DNA from: Isurus oxyrinchus
Lineage: Eukaryota
Assembly: GCA_026770705.1 (NCBI GenBank)
Contig: JANJGN010000015.1
Coordinates: 35,588,001-35,652,000 of the forward strand
Length of the DNA: 64,000 bases
Direction: 5' to 3'
In this document: one piece after another, positions 9,998 to 41,365 of the stretch
How the letters are laid out: each line of letters begins with the position of its first letter
Position numbering within the stretch: position 1 is the stretch's first letter
Notes under the pieces: generated by a model
The model's input: only the letters and a program-made list of their open reading frames with translations
Told to the model about the DNA's origin: nothing
The model's database searches: none
Translations under genes and position numbers: made by a program

Positions 9998-10273
9998 TGT
10001 CATGTTATCATAATGATATAATACCTTGGGCTTATTTACTGTACAAGACACAAGGCACCAATCATTCATAAGGGATTGGGTACACACGTTGTGGGTTCAT
10101 TTATTAAGAATAGGCTCAGAAGAACGATTGTACATAGGTATAAACCTTGAAGACATCAGAGTTGTGTGTGTCTGTGCTCTGCTCAAAGCAAAAGTGAAAC
10201 TAAGACTGGATCACATGACACATTTCCCTTCTAGTGATGTCATGCTGGTATCCCTTAAAGGCACATTATAACA
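9998..10273 (-). mobile_element. Solo LTR of the same family, with Penelope inserted at its edge
   Basis: tgtcatg..tataaca termini; flanks acacc (9993-9997) / acatc (11243-11247); shared core aaagtgaaa.t.agactg.atca.atgacaca.ttcccttcta.tgatg.catgctg.tatcccttaaagg. Confidence 0.7.
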
Positions 10274-10274
10274 A

Positions 10275-11230
10275 AACAAAAACAGAATTACCTGGAAAAA
10301 CTCAGCAGGTCTGGCAGCATCGGCAGAGAAGAAAAAAGTTGACGTTTCGAGTCGTCATGACCCTTCGACAGAACTTGAGTGAGTCCAAGAAAGGGATGAA
10401 ATATAAGCTGGTTTAAGGTGTGTTGGTGGGGGGAGAGAGAGAGAAGTGGAGGGGGTTGGTGTGGTTGTAGGGACAAACAAGCAGTAATAGAAGCAGATCA
10501 TCAAAAGATGGCCTAAACAACAGAACAAAAGAACACATAGGTGTTAAAGTTGGTGATATTATCTAAACGAATGTGCTAATTAAGAATGGATGGTAGGGCA
10601 CTCAAGGTATAGCTCTAGTGGGGGTGGGGGGAGCATAAAAGATTTAAAAATATTTAAAAATAATGGAAATAGGTGGGAAAAGAAAAGTATATAATTTATT
10701 GGAAAAAACAAAAGGAAGGGGGAAACAGAAAGGGGGTGGGGATGGAAGAGGGATCTCAAGACCTAAAGTTGTTGAATTCAATATTCAGTCCGGAAGGCTG
10801 TAAAGTGCCTAGTCGGAAGATGAGGTGTTGTTCCTCTAGTTTGCTTTGGGCTTCACTGGAACAATGCAGCAAGGATAGACATGTGGGCAAGAGAGCAGGG
10901 TGGAGTGTTAAAATGGCAAGCGACAGGGAGGTTTGGGTCATTCTTGCGGACAGACTGCTGGTGTTCTGTAAAGCGGTCGCCCAGTTTACGTTTGGTCTCT
11001 CCAATGTAGAGGAGACCACATTGGGAGCAACGAATGCAGTAGACTAAGTTGGGGGAAATGCAAGTGAAATGCTGCTTCACTTGAAAGGAGTGTTTGGGCC
11101 CTTGGACAGTGGGGAGAGAGGAAGTGAACGGGCAGGTGTTGCATGCTGATGCTGCCAGACCTGCTGAGTTTTTCCAGGTAATTCTGTTTTTGTTTTGGAT
11201 TTCCAGCATCCGCAGTTTTTTTGTTTTTAT
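10275..11230 (-). mobile_element. Penelope-like retroelement, 5'-truncated, with inverted terminal segment
   Basis: Minus-strand CNTCPF..NLVYCIRCSQCGLLYIGETKRKLGDRFTEH (GIY-YIG); 11144-11230 is an inverted copy of the 3' end; 13-bp TSD cacattataacaa at 10262-10274 and 11231-11243. Confidence 0.92.
10336..10376 (-). ncRNA. Minimal type I hammerhead ribozyme motif (Penelope pLTR)
   Basis: Minus strand aagtt CTGTCGA a gggtc atgac gactc GAAA c GTC aactt: stem I aagtt/aactt, stem II gggtc/gactc. Confidence 0.75.
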
Positions 11231-11564
11231 CACATTATAACAACATCCATGCCTACACCATGAACAATCAACCCCATTTGAGTCAAAACCTTAAAACACT
11301 TCTATTGTCCCCACATTTGATTTTTCTATCACTCTAATAGCCAGTCCTATCCTTCACTGTTCAGTGTCTTTACTTCCACCCTTCACAAGTGGCAATACAT
11401 TTAGGATTCCATGGTCCACACCTCCGTATCCAATCCTCCTGATCCTCACTCTTGCCAAGTGATTTTAGTCCTGTGGTTTGCAGCAATGTTTTCATTTATA
11501 ATTTTAAATCTCCCCATAAATTTAGCCCACTCTACCTCAGTAATTTCACCTAGTAACACAAATT

Positions 11565-21227: not shown

Positions 21228-21734
21228 ATTCTGTTGTAGTGATTGATTTGAGGGACATGGTCTTTACCTGAAACCTTTCATTTGTTTGTTAGACAAGAGG
21301 ACTAGGCAATGCAAAACACTTTTGTGTTGCTAACATAATTACATTGGTTTCCTTGCATACAGCACCATTATGATGGTAAATAAAACATAGTTGGTTGTCT
21401 GTGCTGCCATCACACCCATCAATTCAGTATTGTCTCTGTTATTCTGTGCATTGGGTTGGGTTAAGTGGCAAATGAGAAAAGAAGGGTTGAGGCAATGAAT
21501 GAATATTCAGACTTTGAAGTTAGCATTAAAGCATTAGGGTGGGGCTAGTAGATGGTCTGTGAGATGATGCTCTGTCTGTCAACAAAGGTTAACCCAACAC
21601 CATGAAAATGCAAACAAAACTCTTGGATTAACTTCCAGAAGAACATTCAGCAGAGAAGTAATGTTAAACTTATACAGTGCTGTGGTTAGACCACACAGGG
21701 TATCATGCACAATTCCAGCCTCCATATGAAGGCA

Positions 21735-21961
21735 TAAAAACAAAAAAACTGTGGATGCTGGAAATCCAAAACAAAAACAGAATTACCTGGAAAAACTCAG
21801 CAGGTCTGGCAGCATTGGCGGAGAAGAAAAGAGTTGACGTTTCGAGTCCTCATGACCCTTCGACAGACCTAGGGTCATGAGGACTCGAAACGTCAACTCT
21901 TTTCTTCTCCGCTGATGCTGCCAGACCTGCTGAGTTTTTCCAGGTAATTCTGTTTTTGTTT
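21735..21961. mobile_element. Palindromic miniature Penelope insertion (two head-to-head pLTR ends)
   Basis: Arms 21768-21859 and 21871-21962 are reverse complements with 2 mismatches; 14-bp TSD tccatatgaaggca at 21721-21734 and 21962-21975. Confidence 0.93.
21832..21870 (-). ncRNA. Minimal hammerhead ribozyme motif
   Basis: Minus strand aggt CTGTCGA a gggtc atgag gactc GAAA c GTC aact; stem I has one mismatch. Confidence 0.65.
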
Positions 21962-22144
21962 TCCATATGAAGGCACTAGGGAATAAAGATTTACAAGGAT
22001 AATATAAGAACTGAGAGGTTACAACTATCTAGAAAGACTGCACAGACTTGGCTCTTTTCTCTAGAAGAAAGAAGACTGTGGGGTGACCTGACAGAGATCT
22101 TTACAATCATGAAGGGGTTTGATAGGGTAGACAACAGAAGAAAT

Positions 22145-22363: not shown

Positions 22364-23345
22364 TTAACGTATTATGGGAATGCCTCCCACGTCTTCCTTC
22401 CTCCATGACGTGATCATGCTCATACTGACCTCAGCAGCCTCCTGAGGCTCCTCAGCCTCCAGATCTTCATCCTCCAATGAGCTGTCATCCTCCTCCAGTT
22501 CATCCTCAGGGAGGGGGTCACCTCTTTGCGTAGCCAGATTGTGAAGGGCACAACACACTGCGATGATGCGGGAAACCCTGTCAGGAGTGTATTGTAGTGA
22601 GTTACCTGCACGGCCCAAGCATTTGAAATGCATCTTCAGAAGTCCTTTGGTCTGCTTTATAAAGGGAGTGTGTGAAGCTGTGAGCAGTGTTGTACCTCTC
22701 CTTGGAACGACTCTGAGGGTGATGCACTGGTGTCATCAGCCAGCGTTTCACTGAGTGCCCCTTACCCCCAAACAGCCATCCCTGCAGACATAATGGCCCC
22801 TCAAAGATCTCAGGCTCTTGGGAGTGACTCAGGATGTAGGAGTCATGGTAACTCCCAGGGTACCATGCACATATGTGCAGTATGTGCTTCCAGTGATCAT
22901 ACACCAGTTGTACATTAAGGGAATAATAGCCCTTGCGGTTTATCAACATTAGGGCCTGCTGCCATGGAGGCCCTATAGCCACATGGGTGCAGTCTATTGC
23001 ACCCAGCACTCCAGGGAAGCCTGAGGTGGCGGCGAAGCCAGTGAATCTTGCTGTCTATCTTTGTCCATAGCAAACCTGACATAACGATGTGGGCCTTCCT
23101 GTAAAGGATATTTGTGACCTCCTTTATGCATCAATGTGTTATGGGCTGAAAGATGCCGCTCAGGTCCCCTGTTGATCCTTGGAAAGAACCAGAGGTCAAG
23201 AAATTGAGTTCTGTGGTCACCTTCAAAGCCACTGGCAAGGGATACCCTCCATTTGGAAACTGTAAGGATCCATAGTTTTTCCTGCCCTAAGATGTGAACA
23301 TGCCTAGGGATCTCCTCCTCCCATGCGTGTCTTGTCATCTGCCAT
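22364..23345 (-). pseudogene. Harbinger DDE transposase remnant
   Basis: LGAIDCTHVAI..INRKGYYSLNVQLVYDH..YPGSYHDSYIL..GWLFGGKG..WLMTP; FKCLGRAGNSLQYTPDRVSRIIAVCCALHNLA; acidic tail; frameshifted. Confidence 0.93.
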
Positions 23346-26492: not shown

Positions 26493-27703
26493 ATGGGGAT
26501 TGTAGCCTCCGCTGGAGGCACCTCCTCTGTGAAGGAAGAGACAGGCAGAAGGGAGAGGAGGCCATGTGTCTCTATTCAGCCTCGAGGAGAGGCGCAGGCT
26601 CAAGGAGGGCAGGATCAACAGAAAGTCCAAGGCGGAAGGGGCCACAGAAGACGCCACTCTCCCTCTGCCAGGTTTTCCAGTAGTGATGCAGCTACCTCAA
26701 TATGTCTGAGGTGCAATGCCAAAGAGGGCTCCATCTCTCAAGGGAGACAGTGATCTCCATTTGTCAGATGATTGGGCCTGACATCAGCTTCGACTGTGTG
26801 TGTGGACACCCGATGCCAGTGGCTCTGAAGGTCACAGTGGGCCTCAACTTCTATGTTTCCTGCTCTTTCCAGGGCTTGGTGGGTGATCTTTGTGGAGTCT
26901 CCCAATCAGCTGTTCACACTTGTGTCAAGCTGGTGACAGGAGCTCTGTTCAGGCATGCATTGACTTTCCTTCATTAATGTACGGACGAGGCCAGTCAGGC
27001 TGAGTGAGCCAAAGGCTTCACAGCGATTGCTGGCTTCCCCTGCATCCGGGGTGCAATCGCCTGCTCACATGTGGCCACTAAGGCGCCAGCAGGTGAGCCC
27101 GATGCCTTTGTCAACAGGAAGGGCTCCCACTCCATGAAGCTAGTGTGTGATCACAGGATGCAGATTCTGCAAGTCTGTGCAAGGTAGCCAGGCAGCTCCC
27201 ACAATGCTTACATCCTGAGACACTCCCAGGTGCCAAGGCTCTTCAGTGCTTCAGCCCAGCTGGATGGATGGCTGCTGGGTGACAAGGGCTATCTCCTCAA
27301 AAGGTGGCTTACGACTCCTCTCCGCCACCCAAGAACAGAGGCCAAGCAGCAGTACAACAGTAGTCACGCCTCCACAAGGGCTGTAGGAAAGAGAACCATT
27401 GGTCTTCTCAAGATGCGCTTCCGATGCCTGGACTGCTCAGGGGGAGCACTGCAGTACCCACCAGACCATGTCTCATTGATAGTGGTTGCATGCTGCCTTC
27501 TCCACAATCTGGCACTGGCAAGGTGGGACACAGCTGAGGAAGAGGATCCTGACGCAGCTGCACAGGCAACAGATGATGAGTCCATTAGTGAGTCCGAGGG
27601 TGAGCACTCTCAGGAGAACGCTGAGGGTATAGACACTGACCTGGGTAACCTCTAAGGAGGCAGGGATGCTCAGGATGCTTTCATCCAACCGTCCTTCAGC
27701 TAG
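26493..27703 (+). pseudogene. Harbinger DDE transposase, almost full length, inactivated
   Basis: [101 protein letters not shown]; in-frame stops; catalytic D residues changed (IAC, HNA). Confidence 0.93.
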
Positions 27704-31385: not shown

Positions 31386-32526
31386 CAGCTGGGCTTAATT
31401 TCTAACTCATTTGTTTCATTTTTCAAAACAATTTGTTGAGTAATATTCATGAATTCTTTGACGTTTATTCTGTGTTTTCTCATTAATCCCATGTTCATTT
31501 ATCTAGGCTTGTTGAGTATCCTGCTAAATTTCTGTATGACAGGGATCCATTGATGTGAAAGGAAAGGGCTGAGATAGCAATATGTTTAAGAAAGGCACTA
31601 AGAGACCATAGGAAGACACAGTGGGTACACGACTGGTGTCCAAAAGATGGACAAAACTGCAGCTCATTTAACATTGACTGACATCGCATGGTATTAATGG
31701 AGCAGTAAGGGCAAATTTTAATTGTTATGTTTAACATAATACACTCCTTCACGAATGATATAGTTTTGTGATGGACATTTAACAATCTGATTTGGGATTC
31801 AGAATGACTCATCTAAAACATTCCTCACAGATGTCACCATAAATAAGTTGAAGGGAAACAGCAAAATCTCCAGTAACATCTTCTCCCTCCTATTATTGCG
31901 CTCCACAAATAGAAAACACTTTTAACATTTTGAGTGATAAATATCAGGAAGGAGAGATTTTATTTGGTGTTCTCTTACTTAACACCCATTGGCCTTTACT
32001 AGGCACATTTTTATGGTGACAATGAAAACTCAGTAGGCTGCAGGAATGACACCAGATTCTACAGCCCCATGGCACCACACACTGGGTGTTCCAGCAAACT
32101 GCAACACCCACCGCACTTGCGCTTGTGAATGAGAGCAGCCTTAACAGGACAATTTGCAGGATTAGCAAGTTGACAACATGAAGGAATGAATCAGTTTTAT
32201 TTCGGCAAGGGGAGAGGAAGACTGGTTTCATAAAGCAACGTTATTGGAGACAGGAAGAAATAGGGTGCCAACTGAAAAGGTTTTGTGCACAATTTTAAAA
32301 GAACTTAAGCAGGAATGAATCTCCGCCAGAGCTGATCAGGAAGCAAACATTCTCAGATGCTGGAAATGTGAAAGAAAAGTGGAAAATGCTGAAAACACTC
32401 AGCAGGCCAGGAAACAGCTTGGGGAGGCTTTCTCTGAACTGCAAGAAGTTACAGATATGCACCATTGAAAAAAGAACATAAACCAAAGGGAGACCAGAGA
32501 AGAAGTGGACTAGTACAGCACAGACT

Positions 32527-33480
32527 TCCCTTCCCTTCCTTGACCTCTCTGTCTCAATCTCTGGTGATAGACTGTCCACCAATATCCACTACAAACCCAC
32601 CGACTCCCACAGCTACCTCGACTACAGCTCCTCACACCCCGCTTCCTGTAAGGACTCCATCCCATTCTCCCAGTTCCTTCGCCTTCGTCGCATCTGTTCC
32701 GATGATGCTACCTTCAAAAACGGTTCCTCTGACATGTCCTCCTTCTTCCTTAACCGAGGTTTTCCACCCACGGTCGTTGACAGGGCCCTCAACCGTGTCC
32801 GGCCCATCTCCCGCGCATCCGCCCTCACGCCTTCTCCTCCCTCCCAGAAACATGATAGGGTCCCCCTTGTCCTCACTTATCACCCCACCAGCCTCCGCAT
32901 TCAAAGGATCATCCTCCGCCATTTCCGCCAACTCCAGCATGATGCCACCACCAAACACATCTTCCCTTCACCCCCCTTATCGGCATTCCGTAGAGATCGC
33001 TCCCTCCGGGACACCCTGGTCCACTCCTCCATCACCCCCTACTCCTCAACCCCCTCCTATGGCACCACCCCATGCCCACGCAAAAGATGTAACACCTGCC
33101 CCTTCACTTCCTCTCTCCTCACCGTCCAAGGGCCCAAACATTCCTTTCAAGTGAAGCAGCATTTCACTTGCATTTCCCCCAACTTAGTCTACTGCATTCG
33201 TTGCTCCCAATGTGGTCTCCTCTACATTGGAGAGACCAAACGTAAACTGGGCGACCGCTTTGCAGAACACCTGCGGTCTGTCCGCAAGAATGACCCAAAC
33301 CTCCCTGTGGCTTGCCATTTTAACACTCCACCCTGCTCTCTTGCCCACATGTCTGTCCTTGGCTTACTGCATTGTTCCAGTGAAGCCCAACGCAAACTGG
33401 AGGAACAACACCTCATCTTCCGACTAGGCACCTTACAGCCTTCCGGTCTGAATATTGAATTCAATAACTTTAGGTCGTGA
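32527..33480 (+). CDS. Penelope polyprotein C-terminal part: end of RT, thumb/linker, GIY-YIG endonuclease (317 uninterrupted codons, no native start)
   Basis: SLPFLDLSV..YKPTDSHSYLDYSSSHP..SIPFSQFLRLRRICS, CPRKRCNTC, NLVYCIRC..LYIGET..RFAEH, EQHLIFRLGTLQPSGLN. Confidence 0.92.
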   Translation, partial: SLPFLDLSVSISGDRLSTNIHYKPTDSHSYLDYSSSHPASCKDSIPFSQFLRLRRICSDDATFKNGSSDMSSFFLNRGFPPTVVDRALNRVRPISRASALTPSPPSQKHDRVPLVLTYHPTSLRIQRIILRHFRQLQHDATTKHIFPSPPLSAFRRDRSLRDTLVHSSITPYSSTPSYGTTPCPRKRCNTCPFTSSLLTVQGPKHSFQVKQHFTCISPNLVYCIRCSQCGLLYIGETKRKLGDRFAEHLRSVRKNDPNLPVACHFNTPPCSLAHMSVLGLLHCSSEAQRKLEEQHLIFRLGTLQPSGLNIEFNNFRS

Positions 33481-33877
33481 GCTCCCTCCCCCATCCCCAC
33501 CCCCTTTCTGTTTCCCCCTTTTTTCCCCCTTTTTTTCCCTATAAATTTTATAGATTTTTCTTTTCCCACCTATTTCCATTATTTTTAAATATTTTAAAAT
33601 CCTTTATGCTCCCCCCACCCCCACTAGAGCTGTACCTTGAGTGCCCTACCATCCATTCTTAATTAGCACATTCGTTTAGATAATATCACCAACTTTAACT
33701 TTAACACCTATGTGTTCTTTTGTACCATTGTTACTGACATCTTTTGATGATCTGCTTCTATCACTGCTTGTTTGTCTACACAAGCACCTCTGTCTCTCTC
33801 TCTCTCTCCTTCCCCCCCCCCCCCCCCCACACACCTTAAACCAGCTTATATTTCAACTCTTTCCTGGACTCGAAATC

Positions 33878-33918
33878 AAGTTCTGTCGAAGGGTCATGAG
33901 GACTCGAAACGTCAACTC
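33878..33918 (+). ncRNA. Minimal type I hammerhead ribozyme motif
   Basis: agtt CTGTCGA a gggtc atgag gactc GAAA c GTC aact; predicted cleavage after C33913; helix III reduced to palindromic ACGT. Confidence 0.78.
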
Positions 33919-34017
33919 TTTTCTCCTCCGCCGATGCTGCCAGACCTACTGAGTTTTTCCAGGTAATTCTGTTTTTGTTTTAGATTTCCAGCATCCGCAG
34001 TTTTCTTTGTTTTCAAC

Positions 34018-34399: not shown

Positions 34400-34530
34400 T
34401 TACCTTTTTCAATGTCGTTCATCTATAAACTCTTCTTGTCCTAATGAAGCATCCACATCTGAAATCTTCATTCCTCTGTTGCCTCCACTGATGCTCACTA
34501 ACCTGCCAAGTGGTTCCAACATCTTCTGTC
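34400..34530 (+). mobile_element. Highly decayed Penelope pLTR remnant of an older family
   Basis: ctaatgaagcatccacatctgaaatcttca..ctccactgatgctcactaacctgccaagtggttccaacat parallels the hammerhead plus downstream pLTR. Confidence 0.5.
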
Positions 34531-34644
34531 ATTGGAGTGATGTACAGCAAACTCCATCATACGTTAATGTGTGGAGTGACCTAATTGTTTTATTATTCAG
34601 AAATCAAAAAGAAAGACCATGGCCCATAATGCAGGACACCATCA

Positions 34645-37152: not shown

Positions 37153-38129
37153 AGGCTTTCATCTGCATCCCACAAATGGGATGCAAAACAGTTTCACGCC
37201 AGTCTCTGGTGGGAATAGCGACCCAACATGATGAGCGGAACCACATGTTCCTATTGTTATTCTACACTGGCAAGACACCCATTTTTCATCTCCCAACACA
37301 TTGTCCCCGCTTCCCACCATTAAACTCACCACTGGGATTAGGGTGGGGGGGGGTTCTGGAAAATTCTGACCACTGGGAAATTGATAGCAGAGATCAAAGA
37401 GCCTGGGCAGTTGATAAAGCAATATTTGCTCTGGGGCTCAGATGTTTCCACAAGGCTAATGGATTTGTGGGCTCTCAGCCAAGCCTCATTATGTATGCTT
37501 AGCTGAGAGCCCAGAAATCCATTACTCTTATCGAAACACCTGAGTATTAAAGATGTTGATGTATTGATAGCGCAAATAAAGCGATTGAGAAGACAGCCAA
37601 CATTGGTGGGAGGCTATAAGTATGCTAAGTTATTTCAAAGTGTACAGTGGCAGACTCTGTCAAAGGCTTTGGAGATATTCAGAGGACAAAGAAAGCACTC
37701 ATCAAAGCAACCAAGAGCAGGGTTCCATTGGTACGTAACAACAATATGGGAGAAACCCAGCCTGACAGGATGCAGAGAGTTCGAGGGATTTATAGAAAAT
37801 GAGTTGGTTGGCAGGCTTGTGGCAGTTCTTCCTCACCTTCCTGCCCAGCATGCAAGCTGGTGGGGGGTGGTGGGCGGGTACCCCCAAAGATGTGCAGGGG
37901 TACTTCTCACCCACCCCTCCAGATGATCTCAGGTAAGGATTGCACAGTGATTGCCTGGGAAGTGCAAACTTTCTCTGAGCAATTGCCCTGGATTGGGAAC
38001 CATCTGAAACTGTGATTTAAATCACAAACTTCAGTTGGTTCTAACTTTCTTACATCAATAGTTACCAGAAAAAGTTAGGAGAATTAAAACCCCTCTAGCT
38101 TCTGGGTAGATATTGTACAGACACATACC

Positions 38130-41269: not shown

Positions 41270-41365
41270 CTTCTAGGAGGCAGAGGTCATGGGTTCGGAA
41301 GGTGCTGTCGAAGGAGCCTTGGCGAAATGTTGCATTGCATCTTGTGGATGGTGCACACTGCTGTA
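41270..41365 (-). mobile_element. LINE fragment (family of 51680-52213)
   Basis: Reverse complement of 52105-52203: cagcagtgtgcaccatccacaagatgc..gccaaggctcctt.gacagcaccttcc. Confidence 0.75.

What the first reader, a model, noticed from the sequence alone, without database searches (positions are those of the whole stretch)
33878..33918. Family-fixed non-canonical hammerhead core CUGUCGA in a young Penelope family
Seen: all three copies with the 5' core (33883-33889 plus, 10365-10371 minus, 21860-21866 minus) read CUGUCGA-A instead of CUGANGA. Stem I, stem II (GGGUC/GACUC), GAAA and the GUC site are intact, and helix III is reduced to the palindrome ACGU. The decayed older remnant at 34441 (ctaatga) looks derived from a canonical CUGAUGA. 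Established: minimal type I hammerheads of Penelope-like elements are proposed to act as dimers, and A6 is a conserved core base. Inference: this A6U variant spread with a recently active element, so it either still cleaves or the motif works as a non-catalytic recognition/dimerisation signal.
Basis: partly seen in the sequence, partly recalled or inferred. Interest (0 to 1): 0.7.

Follow-up and report, generated by a model that had tools for sequence, protein, structure and literature searches.

The report
Penelope hammerhead with altered core base
A very common Penelope-like jumping gene in a likely shark genome carries a small hammerhead ribozyme motif with U where these motifs normally have A (core position 6); the change dominates the family in two organisms and likely weakens self-cutting without having stopped the element's spread.

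Summary
All 3 window copies that keep the 5' core read CUGUCGA-A. In contigs of two organisms (61,598 and 51,348 laid) no other letter is listed at that position, while letters private to the window copy show at 93-98%. U6 is therefore the family majority; a minority of about 10% could be missed. The motif is otherwise a standard minimal type I hammerhead at the 3' end of a Penelope-like element with a Neptune-type linker. Both motifs found in 7 related invertebrate loci have A6, one with compensatory stems, so U6 is likely derived. Corrections: stem I is broken in the 21.8 kb copy, the extra A is normal, and the family is only moderately young. Best reading (0.5): a weakened ribozyme that spread because cleavage is not needed for copying. 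Published A6 changes lower activity, and a lizard element inserts in vitro without cleavage. Nothing here tests cleavage. My searches found no A6U in print, but two key papers were unavailable. This scan had noted shark Penelope hammerheads on other DNA, none listed with this core. New variant of a known kind; interest 0.4.

The parts
32482..33480 (+). 5'-truncated Penelope-like ORF, 332 codons without a stop: C-terminal part of the RT region, CX4CXXC linker (33073-33099) and GIY-YIG endonuclease with CCHH residues
   Evidence: Pfam GIY-YIG E=2.3e-4, 21.8 bits, just under the 22.6 cut-off; 106 longer homologs, most carrying RT Pfam PF00078
33481..33878 (+). 3' untranslated part between the stop codon and the hammerhead motif
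   Evidence: shared with the 10.3 kb copy, 30 mismatches in 368 columns
33879..33882 (+). stem I, 5' strand (AGUU), pairs with 33914-33917
33883..33889 (+). 5' core C3 U4 G5 U6 C7 G8 A9; T33886 is the non-canonical position 6
   Evidence: no other letter listed at 33886 in X1 or X9
33890..33905 (+). extra A (33890), stem II GGGUC/GACUC with a 5-nt loop
   Evidence: stem II probability 0.73 in the 46-nt monomer, about 0 in longer contexts
33906..33917 (+). 3' core G12 A13 A14 A15.1, palindromic ACGU in place of helix III, predicted cleavage site after C33913, stem I 3' strand
   Evidence: self-duplex of this piece -3.1 kcal/mol
33918..34004 (+). 3' terminal segment and tail of the element
   Evidence: depth falls off and loose ends cluster at 34001-34004
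10273..11144 (-). second 5'-truncated copy (endonuclease part, UTR, complete motif with CUGUCGA at 10371-10365)
   Evidence: 90% identical over 895 columns
11145..11227 (+). inverted tail-only partner of the second copy; 13-nt target duplication 10262-10274 / 11231-11243
21737..21870 (-). third copy, motif plus tail only, CUGUCGA at 21866-21860, stem I mismatched
21871..21962 (+). inverted partner of the third copy, starting at the extra A; 14-nt target duplication 21721-21734 / 21962-21975
34441..34550 (+). older decayed relative: CTAATGA-A core (A at position 6), broken stem II, homologous tail
   Evidence: tail match E=0.008; register read

Best explanation
This is the minimal hammerhead motif at the 3' end of a high-copy Penelope-like retrotransposon, carrying U instead of A at core position 6, a change that likely arose once in a founder and likely leaves a weakened, protein- and dimer-dependent ribozyme whose cutting is probably not needed for copying. 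Shown: the motif, its place 400 nt after the RT-endonuclease ORF, U6 as family majority in two organisms, A6 in relatives. Inferred mechanism: reverse transcription starts in the tail downstream of the motif and has to read through C33913 to copy the core and the ORF, so inserted copies come from templates uncut (or rejoined) at that site; a damped core then costs little and can hitchhike with a successful master. Inferred modifier: with A6 the 5' core pairs perfectly with CGUCA into an inactive hairpin that hides the ACGU dimer palindrome; U6 loosens that hairpin by about 4 kcal/mol, which would offset part of the loss.
For: 3 of 3 window copies with the core have U6. No row at 33886 in X1 or X9 at the 2% threshold, with positive controls 33925 (93/98%) and 33948 (98/98%). 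All other core letters are canonical in the 3 copies. 2 of 2 motifs found in 7 related loci have A6; L029 differs from the window core only at position 6 and shows compensatory pairs in stem I (C-G vs U-A) and stem II (C-G vs U-A). Literature: single mutants in the CUGA turn show low activity (PMC9901934 passage); natural A6C cleaves at under 0.1 per min (PMC3088659) and depends strongly on the metal ion (PMC7151607 Table 1); a lizard Penelope hammerhead cleaves only with protein, its catalytic mutants still insert in vitro, and no RNA-seq reads end at the site (PMC11167929). The 3 full-motif copies and the 21871-21962 partner all run through C17, and depth shows no step there. Folds: natural A6 motif L029 -12.3, window U6 motifs -7.8 and -8.4; in-silico A6 control -11.8.
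Against: No cleavage data for A6U were found or produced; the published rates are for A6C in other scaffolds. The rest of the core has stayed intact, which fits continued selection for full activity as well. The motif folds no better than shuffles (z -0.44 to 1.37 across 5 folds) and stem II is not predicted in longer contexts. Contigs cannot show RNA ends and no RNA run was laid. Only 2 of 7 related loci gave a motif, both from distant invertebrate hosts, so the ancestral state rests on few cases plus the literature, whose descriptor forces CUGANGA.
Confidence: 0.5

Rival explanations
1. The U6 motif is fully competent in vivo: element protein, dimer formation through ACGU, or metal ions make up for the lost A6 contacts, helped by the looser self-paired hairpin.
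For: All other core letters, both stems and the GUC site are kept; U6 persists across subfamilies that differ upstream (A33875C 45% in X1, 98% in X9); A6C is rescued by Mn2+ and by high Mg2+; the lizard motif is protein-assisted; hairpin loosened by about 4 kcal/mol.
Against: No double mutant rescued CUGA-turn changes other than the C3-G8 swap in one type III hammerhead; canonical minimal motifs already cleave poorly.
Confidence: 0.2
2. The motif no longer cleaves but is kept as a fold that the element protein recognises or that sets RNA processing, translation or dimerisation.
For: Insertion in vitro does not need cleavage. In one search the CpG changes at G8 (33888) and C11.1 (33905) are not listed in either organism while G12>A is at 9.8/9.3%, the pattern expected if fold but not chemistry were kept.
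Against: Most copies are truncated and should decay neutrally, so G12>A at the CpG background rate says nothing about selection, and the two missing rows may be contig simplification. The lizard study maps the RT start to a stem-loop downstream of the hammerhead, not to the hammerhead.
Confidence: 0.15
3. The motif is a dead, functionless relic in this lineage: one inactivating change in a founder, carried passively, with too little time for further decay.
For: Naiad elements lack canonical hammerheads and still reach very high copy numbers (PMC8557442 passages); copies differ by only about 4% in the ORF.
Against: Subfamily-level changes have built up around the motif and at the free position N7 (26/35%) but none is listed above the CpG level at constrained core or stem II positions; natural position-6 variants keep some activity.
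Confidence: 0.15

Closest known systems
Minimal type I hammerheads (min-HHR) of metazoan Penelope-like elements (Cervera and De la Pena 2014, PMC4209133)
   Same: Short helix I, extra base between positions 9 and 10.1, G10.1-C11.1 pair, no helix III with palindromic 15.2-16.2, place in the terminal repeat, many dispersed single copies. The Acropora digitifera row of Fig. S3 has nearly the same layout.
   Different: Position 6 is U. All 56 rows of Fig. S3 read A6, but the descriptor requires cuganga, so a U6 family would be missed by it. No cartilaginous fish is among the 56 rows.
Bcep176 A6C hammerhead (Perreault 2011, PMC3088659; Naghdi 2020, PMC7151607)
   Same: Natural pyrimidine at core position 6.
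   Different: C rather than U; a phage intergenic motif rather than a high-copy retroelement family; its activity has been measured (low with Mg2+, better with Mn2+).
PAc (Poseidon) hammerhead of Anolis carolinensis (Frangieh 2024, PMC11167929)
   Same: Hammerhead in the terminal repeat of an endonuclease-bearing Penelope-like element, upstream of the tail where reverse transcription starts.
   Different: Different clade (no Neptune-type linker expected, from PMC8557442 passages); activity shown and protein-assisted; its position-6 letter was not seen in the passages read.
U3-A8 core variant of Cercyon elements (PMC4209133)
   Same: A family-wide departure from CUGANGA in a Penelope hammerhead.
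   Different: U3-A8 is a compensatory swap of a base pair; A6U has no visible compensation.

Membership tests
PLE minimal hammerhead (min-HHR) | 5' core CUGANGA | tested here: not met
   CUGUCGA in 3 of 3 copies; descriptor text. Filed as a variant, not as a canonical member.
PLE minimal hammerhead (min-HHR) | Helix I of 3-7 bp closing the motif (type I) | tested here: met
   4 bp at 33.9 kb, 5 bp at 10.3 kb; mismatched in the 21.8 kb copy (2 of 3)
PLE minimal hammerhead (min-HHR) | Helix II opened by G10.1-C11.1, extra base after A9 | tested here: met
PLE minimal hammerhead (min-HHR) | GAAANNUH with palindromic 15.2-16.2 and no helix III | tested here: met
   GAAA-CG-UC in 4 of 4 copies that hold the 3' core
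PLE minimal hammerhead (min-HHR) | Covariation of stems across related families | tested here: met
   One compensatory pair each in stems I and II between L029 and the window motif, read; a single informative relative. Within window copies none.
PLE minimal hammerhead (min-HHR) | Self-cleavage (weak, as dimer or with protein) | not testable with these tools
   needs an in vitro assay or raw RNA reads
Endonuclease-bearing Penelope-like element | Single ORF with RT and C-terminal GIY-YIG endonuclease (CCHH) | tested here: met
   GIY-YIG match just under Pfam cut-off, CCHH residues nearly invariant, homologs with RT at up to 62% identity; the RT core itself is cut off in the window copy
Endonuclease-bearing Penelope-like element | 5'-truncated copies with an inverted partner and target duplication | tested here: met
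   2 of 3 insertions, 13- and 14-nt duplications; only an 8-nt candidate for the 33.9 kb copy
Endonuclease-bearing Penelope-like element | Two direct terminal repeats flanking a full ORF | tested here: inconclusive
Neptune/Nematis clades | CX2-5CXXC linker between RT and endonuclease | tested here: met
   CPRKRCNTC, residues 198-206 of P0001; definition from PMC8557442 passages
Neptune/Nematis clades | Placement by RT phylogeny | not tested
   no tree was built and no named reference elements were at hand
Non-LTR retrozyme | Head-to-tail repeats with a hammerhead in each unit | tested here: not met
   copies in the window are dispersed singles or inverted pairs

The most novel reading that the evidence does not exclude
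A ribozyme that has changed jobs: in this shark-type lineage the hammerhead lost its chemistry through A6U yet is still selected as a folded recognition element (C3-G8 pair and stem II protected, general base G12 free to decay), and the family amplified to very high copy number in two organisms in that state. It would be a natural case separating the fold from the catalysis of Penelope hammerheads.
Probability: 0.15. Interest if true: 0.7.

Novelty: new variant of a known kind. Interest (0 to 1): 0.4.

Why it matters
What Penelope hammerheads do in vivo is an open question. A successful family with an uncompensated change at a conserved core base is a natural experiment: one U6-versus-A6 assay, with and without the element protein, would tell whether cleavage was dispensable during a large amplification or whether the core tolerates more than in vitro scans suggest. 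It also shows that CUGANGA-based searches miss a whole abundant family. The system itself is a known kind.

Tried and rejected
No whole genome is held, so copies could not be counted on an assembly. Rfam gave no hammerhead family among 10 matches up to E=5; minimal motifs are evidently not covered. A pattern scan of viral contigs found 0; protein scans of viral contigs found no relative. The metagenome scan with the tail motif gave 22 loci, 0 of 22 with similarity beyond the pattern or an upstream hammerhead: chance. Runs X21 and X22 (organisms C, D) gave 4 and 0 reads, none over the core: no test. 5 of 7 related loci (L023, L024, L026-L028) gave no motif. Pair counts on window copies showed no covariation; the copies are too alike and that alignment included decayed and partial rows. 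CTGTCGA at 41305 lies in another repeat and lacks stem I: rejected. An alternative register without the extra A gives no G8-A9 and was rejected. A coding constraint on position 6 was rejected as unlikely: it lies upstream of both ATGs (33896, 33934), which open frames of only 18 and 10 codons. Summed depth was not used as a copy number. Literature: searches showed no listed paper on A6U or CUGUCGA in a Penelope hammerhead (titles, counts and abstract starts only for most); the supplement search of PMC3088659 was uninformative because the control word CUGACGA also gave 0 and its Fig. S7 was unreadable as text.

Full report
Observation. The sequence at 33879-33917 reads AGTT CTGTCGA A GGGTC ATGAG GACTC GAAA CG TC AACT. 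This is a type I minimal hammerhead layout with U at core position 6 (T33886). The same core is at 10371-10365 and 21866-21860 on the minus strand, so 3 of 3 copies with a 5' core carry it. A descriptor with position 6 left free hits two of them and nothing in 15 Markov sequences of the same length. The third fails because its stem I strand reads AGGU at an inversion junction. Rfam lists no hammerhead family here.

Context. The motif lies about 400 nt after a 332-codon open frame (32482-33480) with a GIY-YIG match just under the Pfam cut-off, a CX4CXXC linker and CCHH residues. Its 106 longer homologs mostly carry an RT domain; the closest named ones are from sharks (62% identity over 54% of the query, Chiloscyllium), so the host is likely a cartilaginous fish (inference). 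Two of three insertions have an inverted 5'-truncated partner and 13- or 14-nt target duplications, as described for Penelope-like elements (PMC8557442, passages). The two long copies differ at 16 of 389 ORF columns, 30 of 368 UTR columns and 1 of 39 motif columns; 3 of 20 CpG sites have decayed. The family is moderately young, not demonstrably active now.

Is U6 family-wide? I laid 4 of the 24 listed runs on 33836-34013 at 80% likeness and a 2% threshold. X1 (organism A, possibly the source sample) gave 61,598 contigs and X9 (organism B) 51,348; X21 and X22 gave 4 and 0 reads and are no test. No other letter is listed at 33886 in either run. Letters private to the window copy appear as expected (33925 C>T 93/98%, 33948 A>G 98/98%), so an A6 majority would have shown. 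Limits: the tool warns that a missing row is no proof, that contigs drop rare variants and that some differences in X1 were not counted. Of 12 CpG-type changes at 6 CpG sites, 10 are listed (mostly 7-15%; C7>T 26/35%), while G8>A and C11.1>T are missing in both runs. A missing row can therefore hide a minority of about 10%, or those two positions are really protected; I cannot tell which. G12>A, which would remove the general base, stands at 9.8/9.3%, the CpG background expected of dead copies. Upstream subfamily markers differ between the organisms (A33875C 45 vs 98%), which suggests that amplification went on in more than one subfamily with U6 unchanged (inference).

Ancestral state. A genome-contig scan returned 7 related loci at 45-53% protein identity, apparently animal host DNA inside bacterial assemblies. 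Two of the 7 hold a motif and both have A6: L029 (CTGACGA, 116 nt after the match) and L025 (CTGAAGA). L029 differs from the window core only at position 6 and has one compensatory pair in each stem. The decayed remnant at 34441 also has A there. All 56 rows of Fig. S3 of PMC4209133 read A6, but the descriptor forces it. U6 is likely derived.

What the change should do. PMC9901934 (passages) reports low activity for single and double mutants of the CUGA turn apart from the C3-G8 swap. PMC3088659 (section 8 read whole) reports natural A6C at under 0.1 per min. PMC7151607 (passages and Table 1) gives an A6C mutant 3.6e-6 per min against 0.30 for wild type at 0.3 mM Mg2+, rising to 0.067 at 1 mM Mg2+ and 0.18 at 0.3 mM Mn2+. 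None gave an A6U value in what I read. PMC4209133 (main text parts 1-2 of 4 and the whole supplement PDF) finds no monomer cleavage and low dimer cleavage for canonical minimal motifs. PMC11167929 (passages and the second half of the main text) shows a Penelope hammerhead that cleaves only with protein, catalytic mutants that still insert, uncut RNA as the main template, and RT starting downstream at the tail.

Mechanism. To copy the core and the ORF, RT must pass C33913 from the tail, so inserted copies come from RNA uncut or rejoined at that site (inference). All four window copies that hold the 3' core run through it, and depth has no step there. A damped core at this end costs little, and a founder change can ride with a successful master. 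Folding adds a possible offset. The natural A6 motif L029 folds into a long hairpin in which the 5' core pairs with CGUCA and hides the ACGU palindrome (-12.3 kcal/mol); the U6 motifs reach -7.8 and -8.4 and an in-silico A6 control -11.8. This is a prediction only. The motifs fold no better than shuffles and stem II is not predicted in longer contexts. I put 0.5 on a weakened, dispensable ribozyme, 0.2 on full activity with help, 0.15 on a non-catalytic signal and 0.15 on a passive relic.

Known or new. Minimal hammerheads in Penelope-like elements are known, as are a family-wide U3-A8 variant and natural A6C. Seven searches listed no paper on A6U or CUGUCGA in such an element, and the PMC8557442 supplement has no such word. 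Lunse et al. 2017 (recalled, not held) and Brill et al. 2024 (seen only as a reference, not held) could hold a U6 variant; supplements of the bioRxiv preprint 10.64898/2026.07.22.740005 (part 1 of 5 and passages read) are closed and may bear on shark motifs. PMC7229834, PMC6155905, PMC12192606 and PMC11014351 were read as passages only and added nothing on position 6 beyond A6C. Earlier notes of this scan describe shark Penelope hammerheads on other DNA as ordinary; none matched this sequence or the word CUGUCGA.

Verdict. A real, family-wide core variant of a known motif. It fails the CUGANGA test and so is filed as a variant. It is a good natural test case for whether Penelope hammerheads need to cut, but the loss or damping of cleavage is not very surprising given the published in vitro result. 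Interest 0.4.

Noticed in passing
window 33888 and 33905: CpG changes G8>A and C11.1>T are not listed in either organism while their partners (33887 C>T 26/35%, 33906 G>A 10/9%) and all other CpG sites are; no row at all lies in 33888-33905. Either protection of the C3-G8 pair and stem II, or an artefact of contig simplification.
   Followed up: partly
window 33866-33875 and 33900-33909: GGACTCGAAA occurs twice in the 33.9 kb copy; the upstream copy pairs with the stem I strand in predicted folds. The 10.3 kb copy has a shorter variant here, and the two forms differ in share between organisms A and B.
   Followed up: partly
window 21767-21962: Near-perfect 92-nt inverted repeat with an 11-nt spacer, formed by a motif-plus-tail copy and its inverted partner; the copy starts at the 5' edge of stem I and the partner at the extra A.
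   Followed up: partly
window 32354-32420 (-): Decayed tail of an older related family just upstream of the 33.9 kb copy (E=1.5e-4); no recognisable core.
   Followed up: partly
window 33963-33992: A GT...pyrimidine tract...CAG stretch of about 29 nt in the tail looks like splice signals; related families read CATTTTC instead of GTAATTC here (loose ends).
   Followed up: no
L023-L029: Two bacterial metagenome-assembled genomes hold contigs with Penelope-like ORFs (six in one of them), most likely animal host DNA left in the bins.
   Followed up: no
window 22364-23054 and 26687-27655: Frames that resemble DDE transposase remnants of the PIF/Harbinger kind (label recalled, not tested); CR1-like LINE fragments at about 39.9-41.4 kb, 54.4-56.4 kb and 63 kb (label recalled, not tested).
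   Followed up: no
window 37437-37544: 48-nt inverted repeat, 85% complementary, 12-nt spacer.
   Followed up: no
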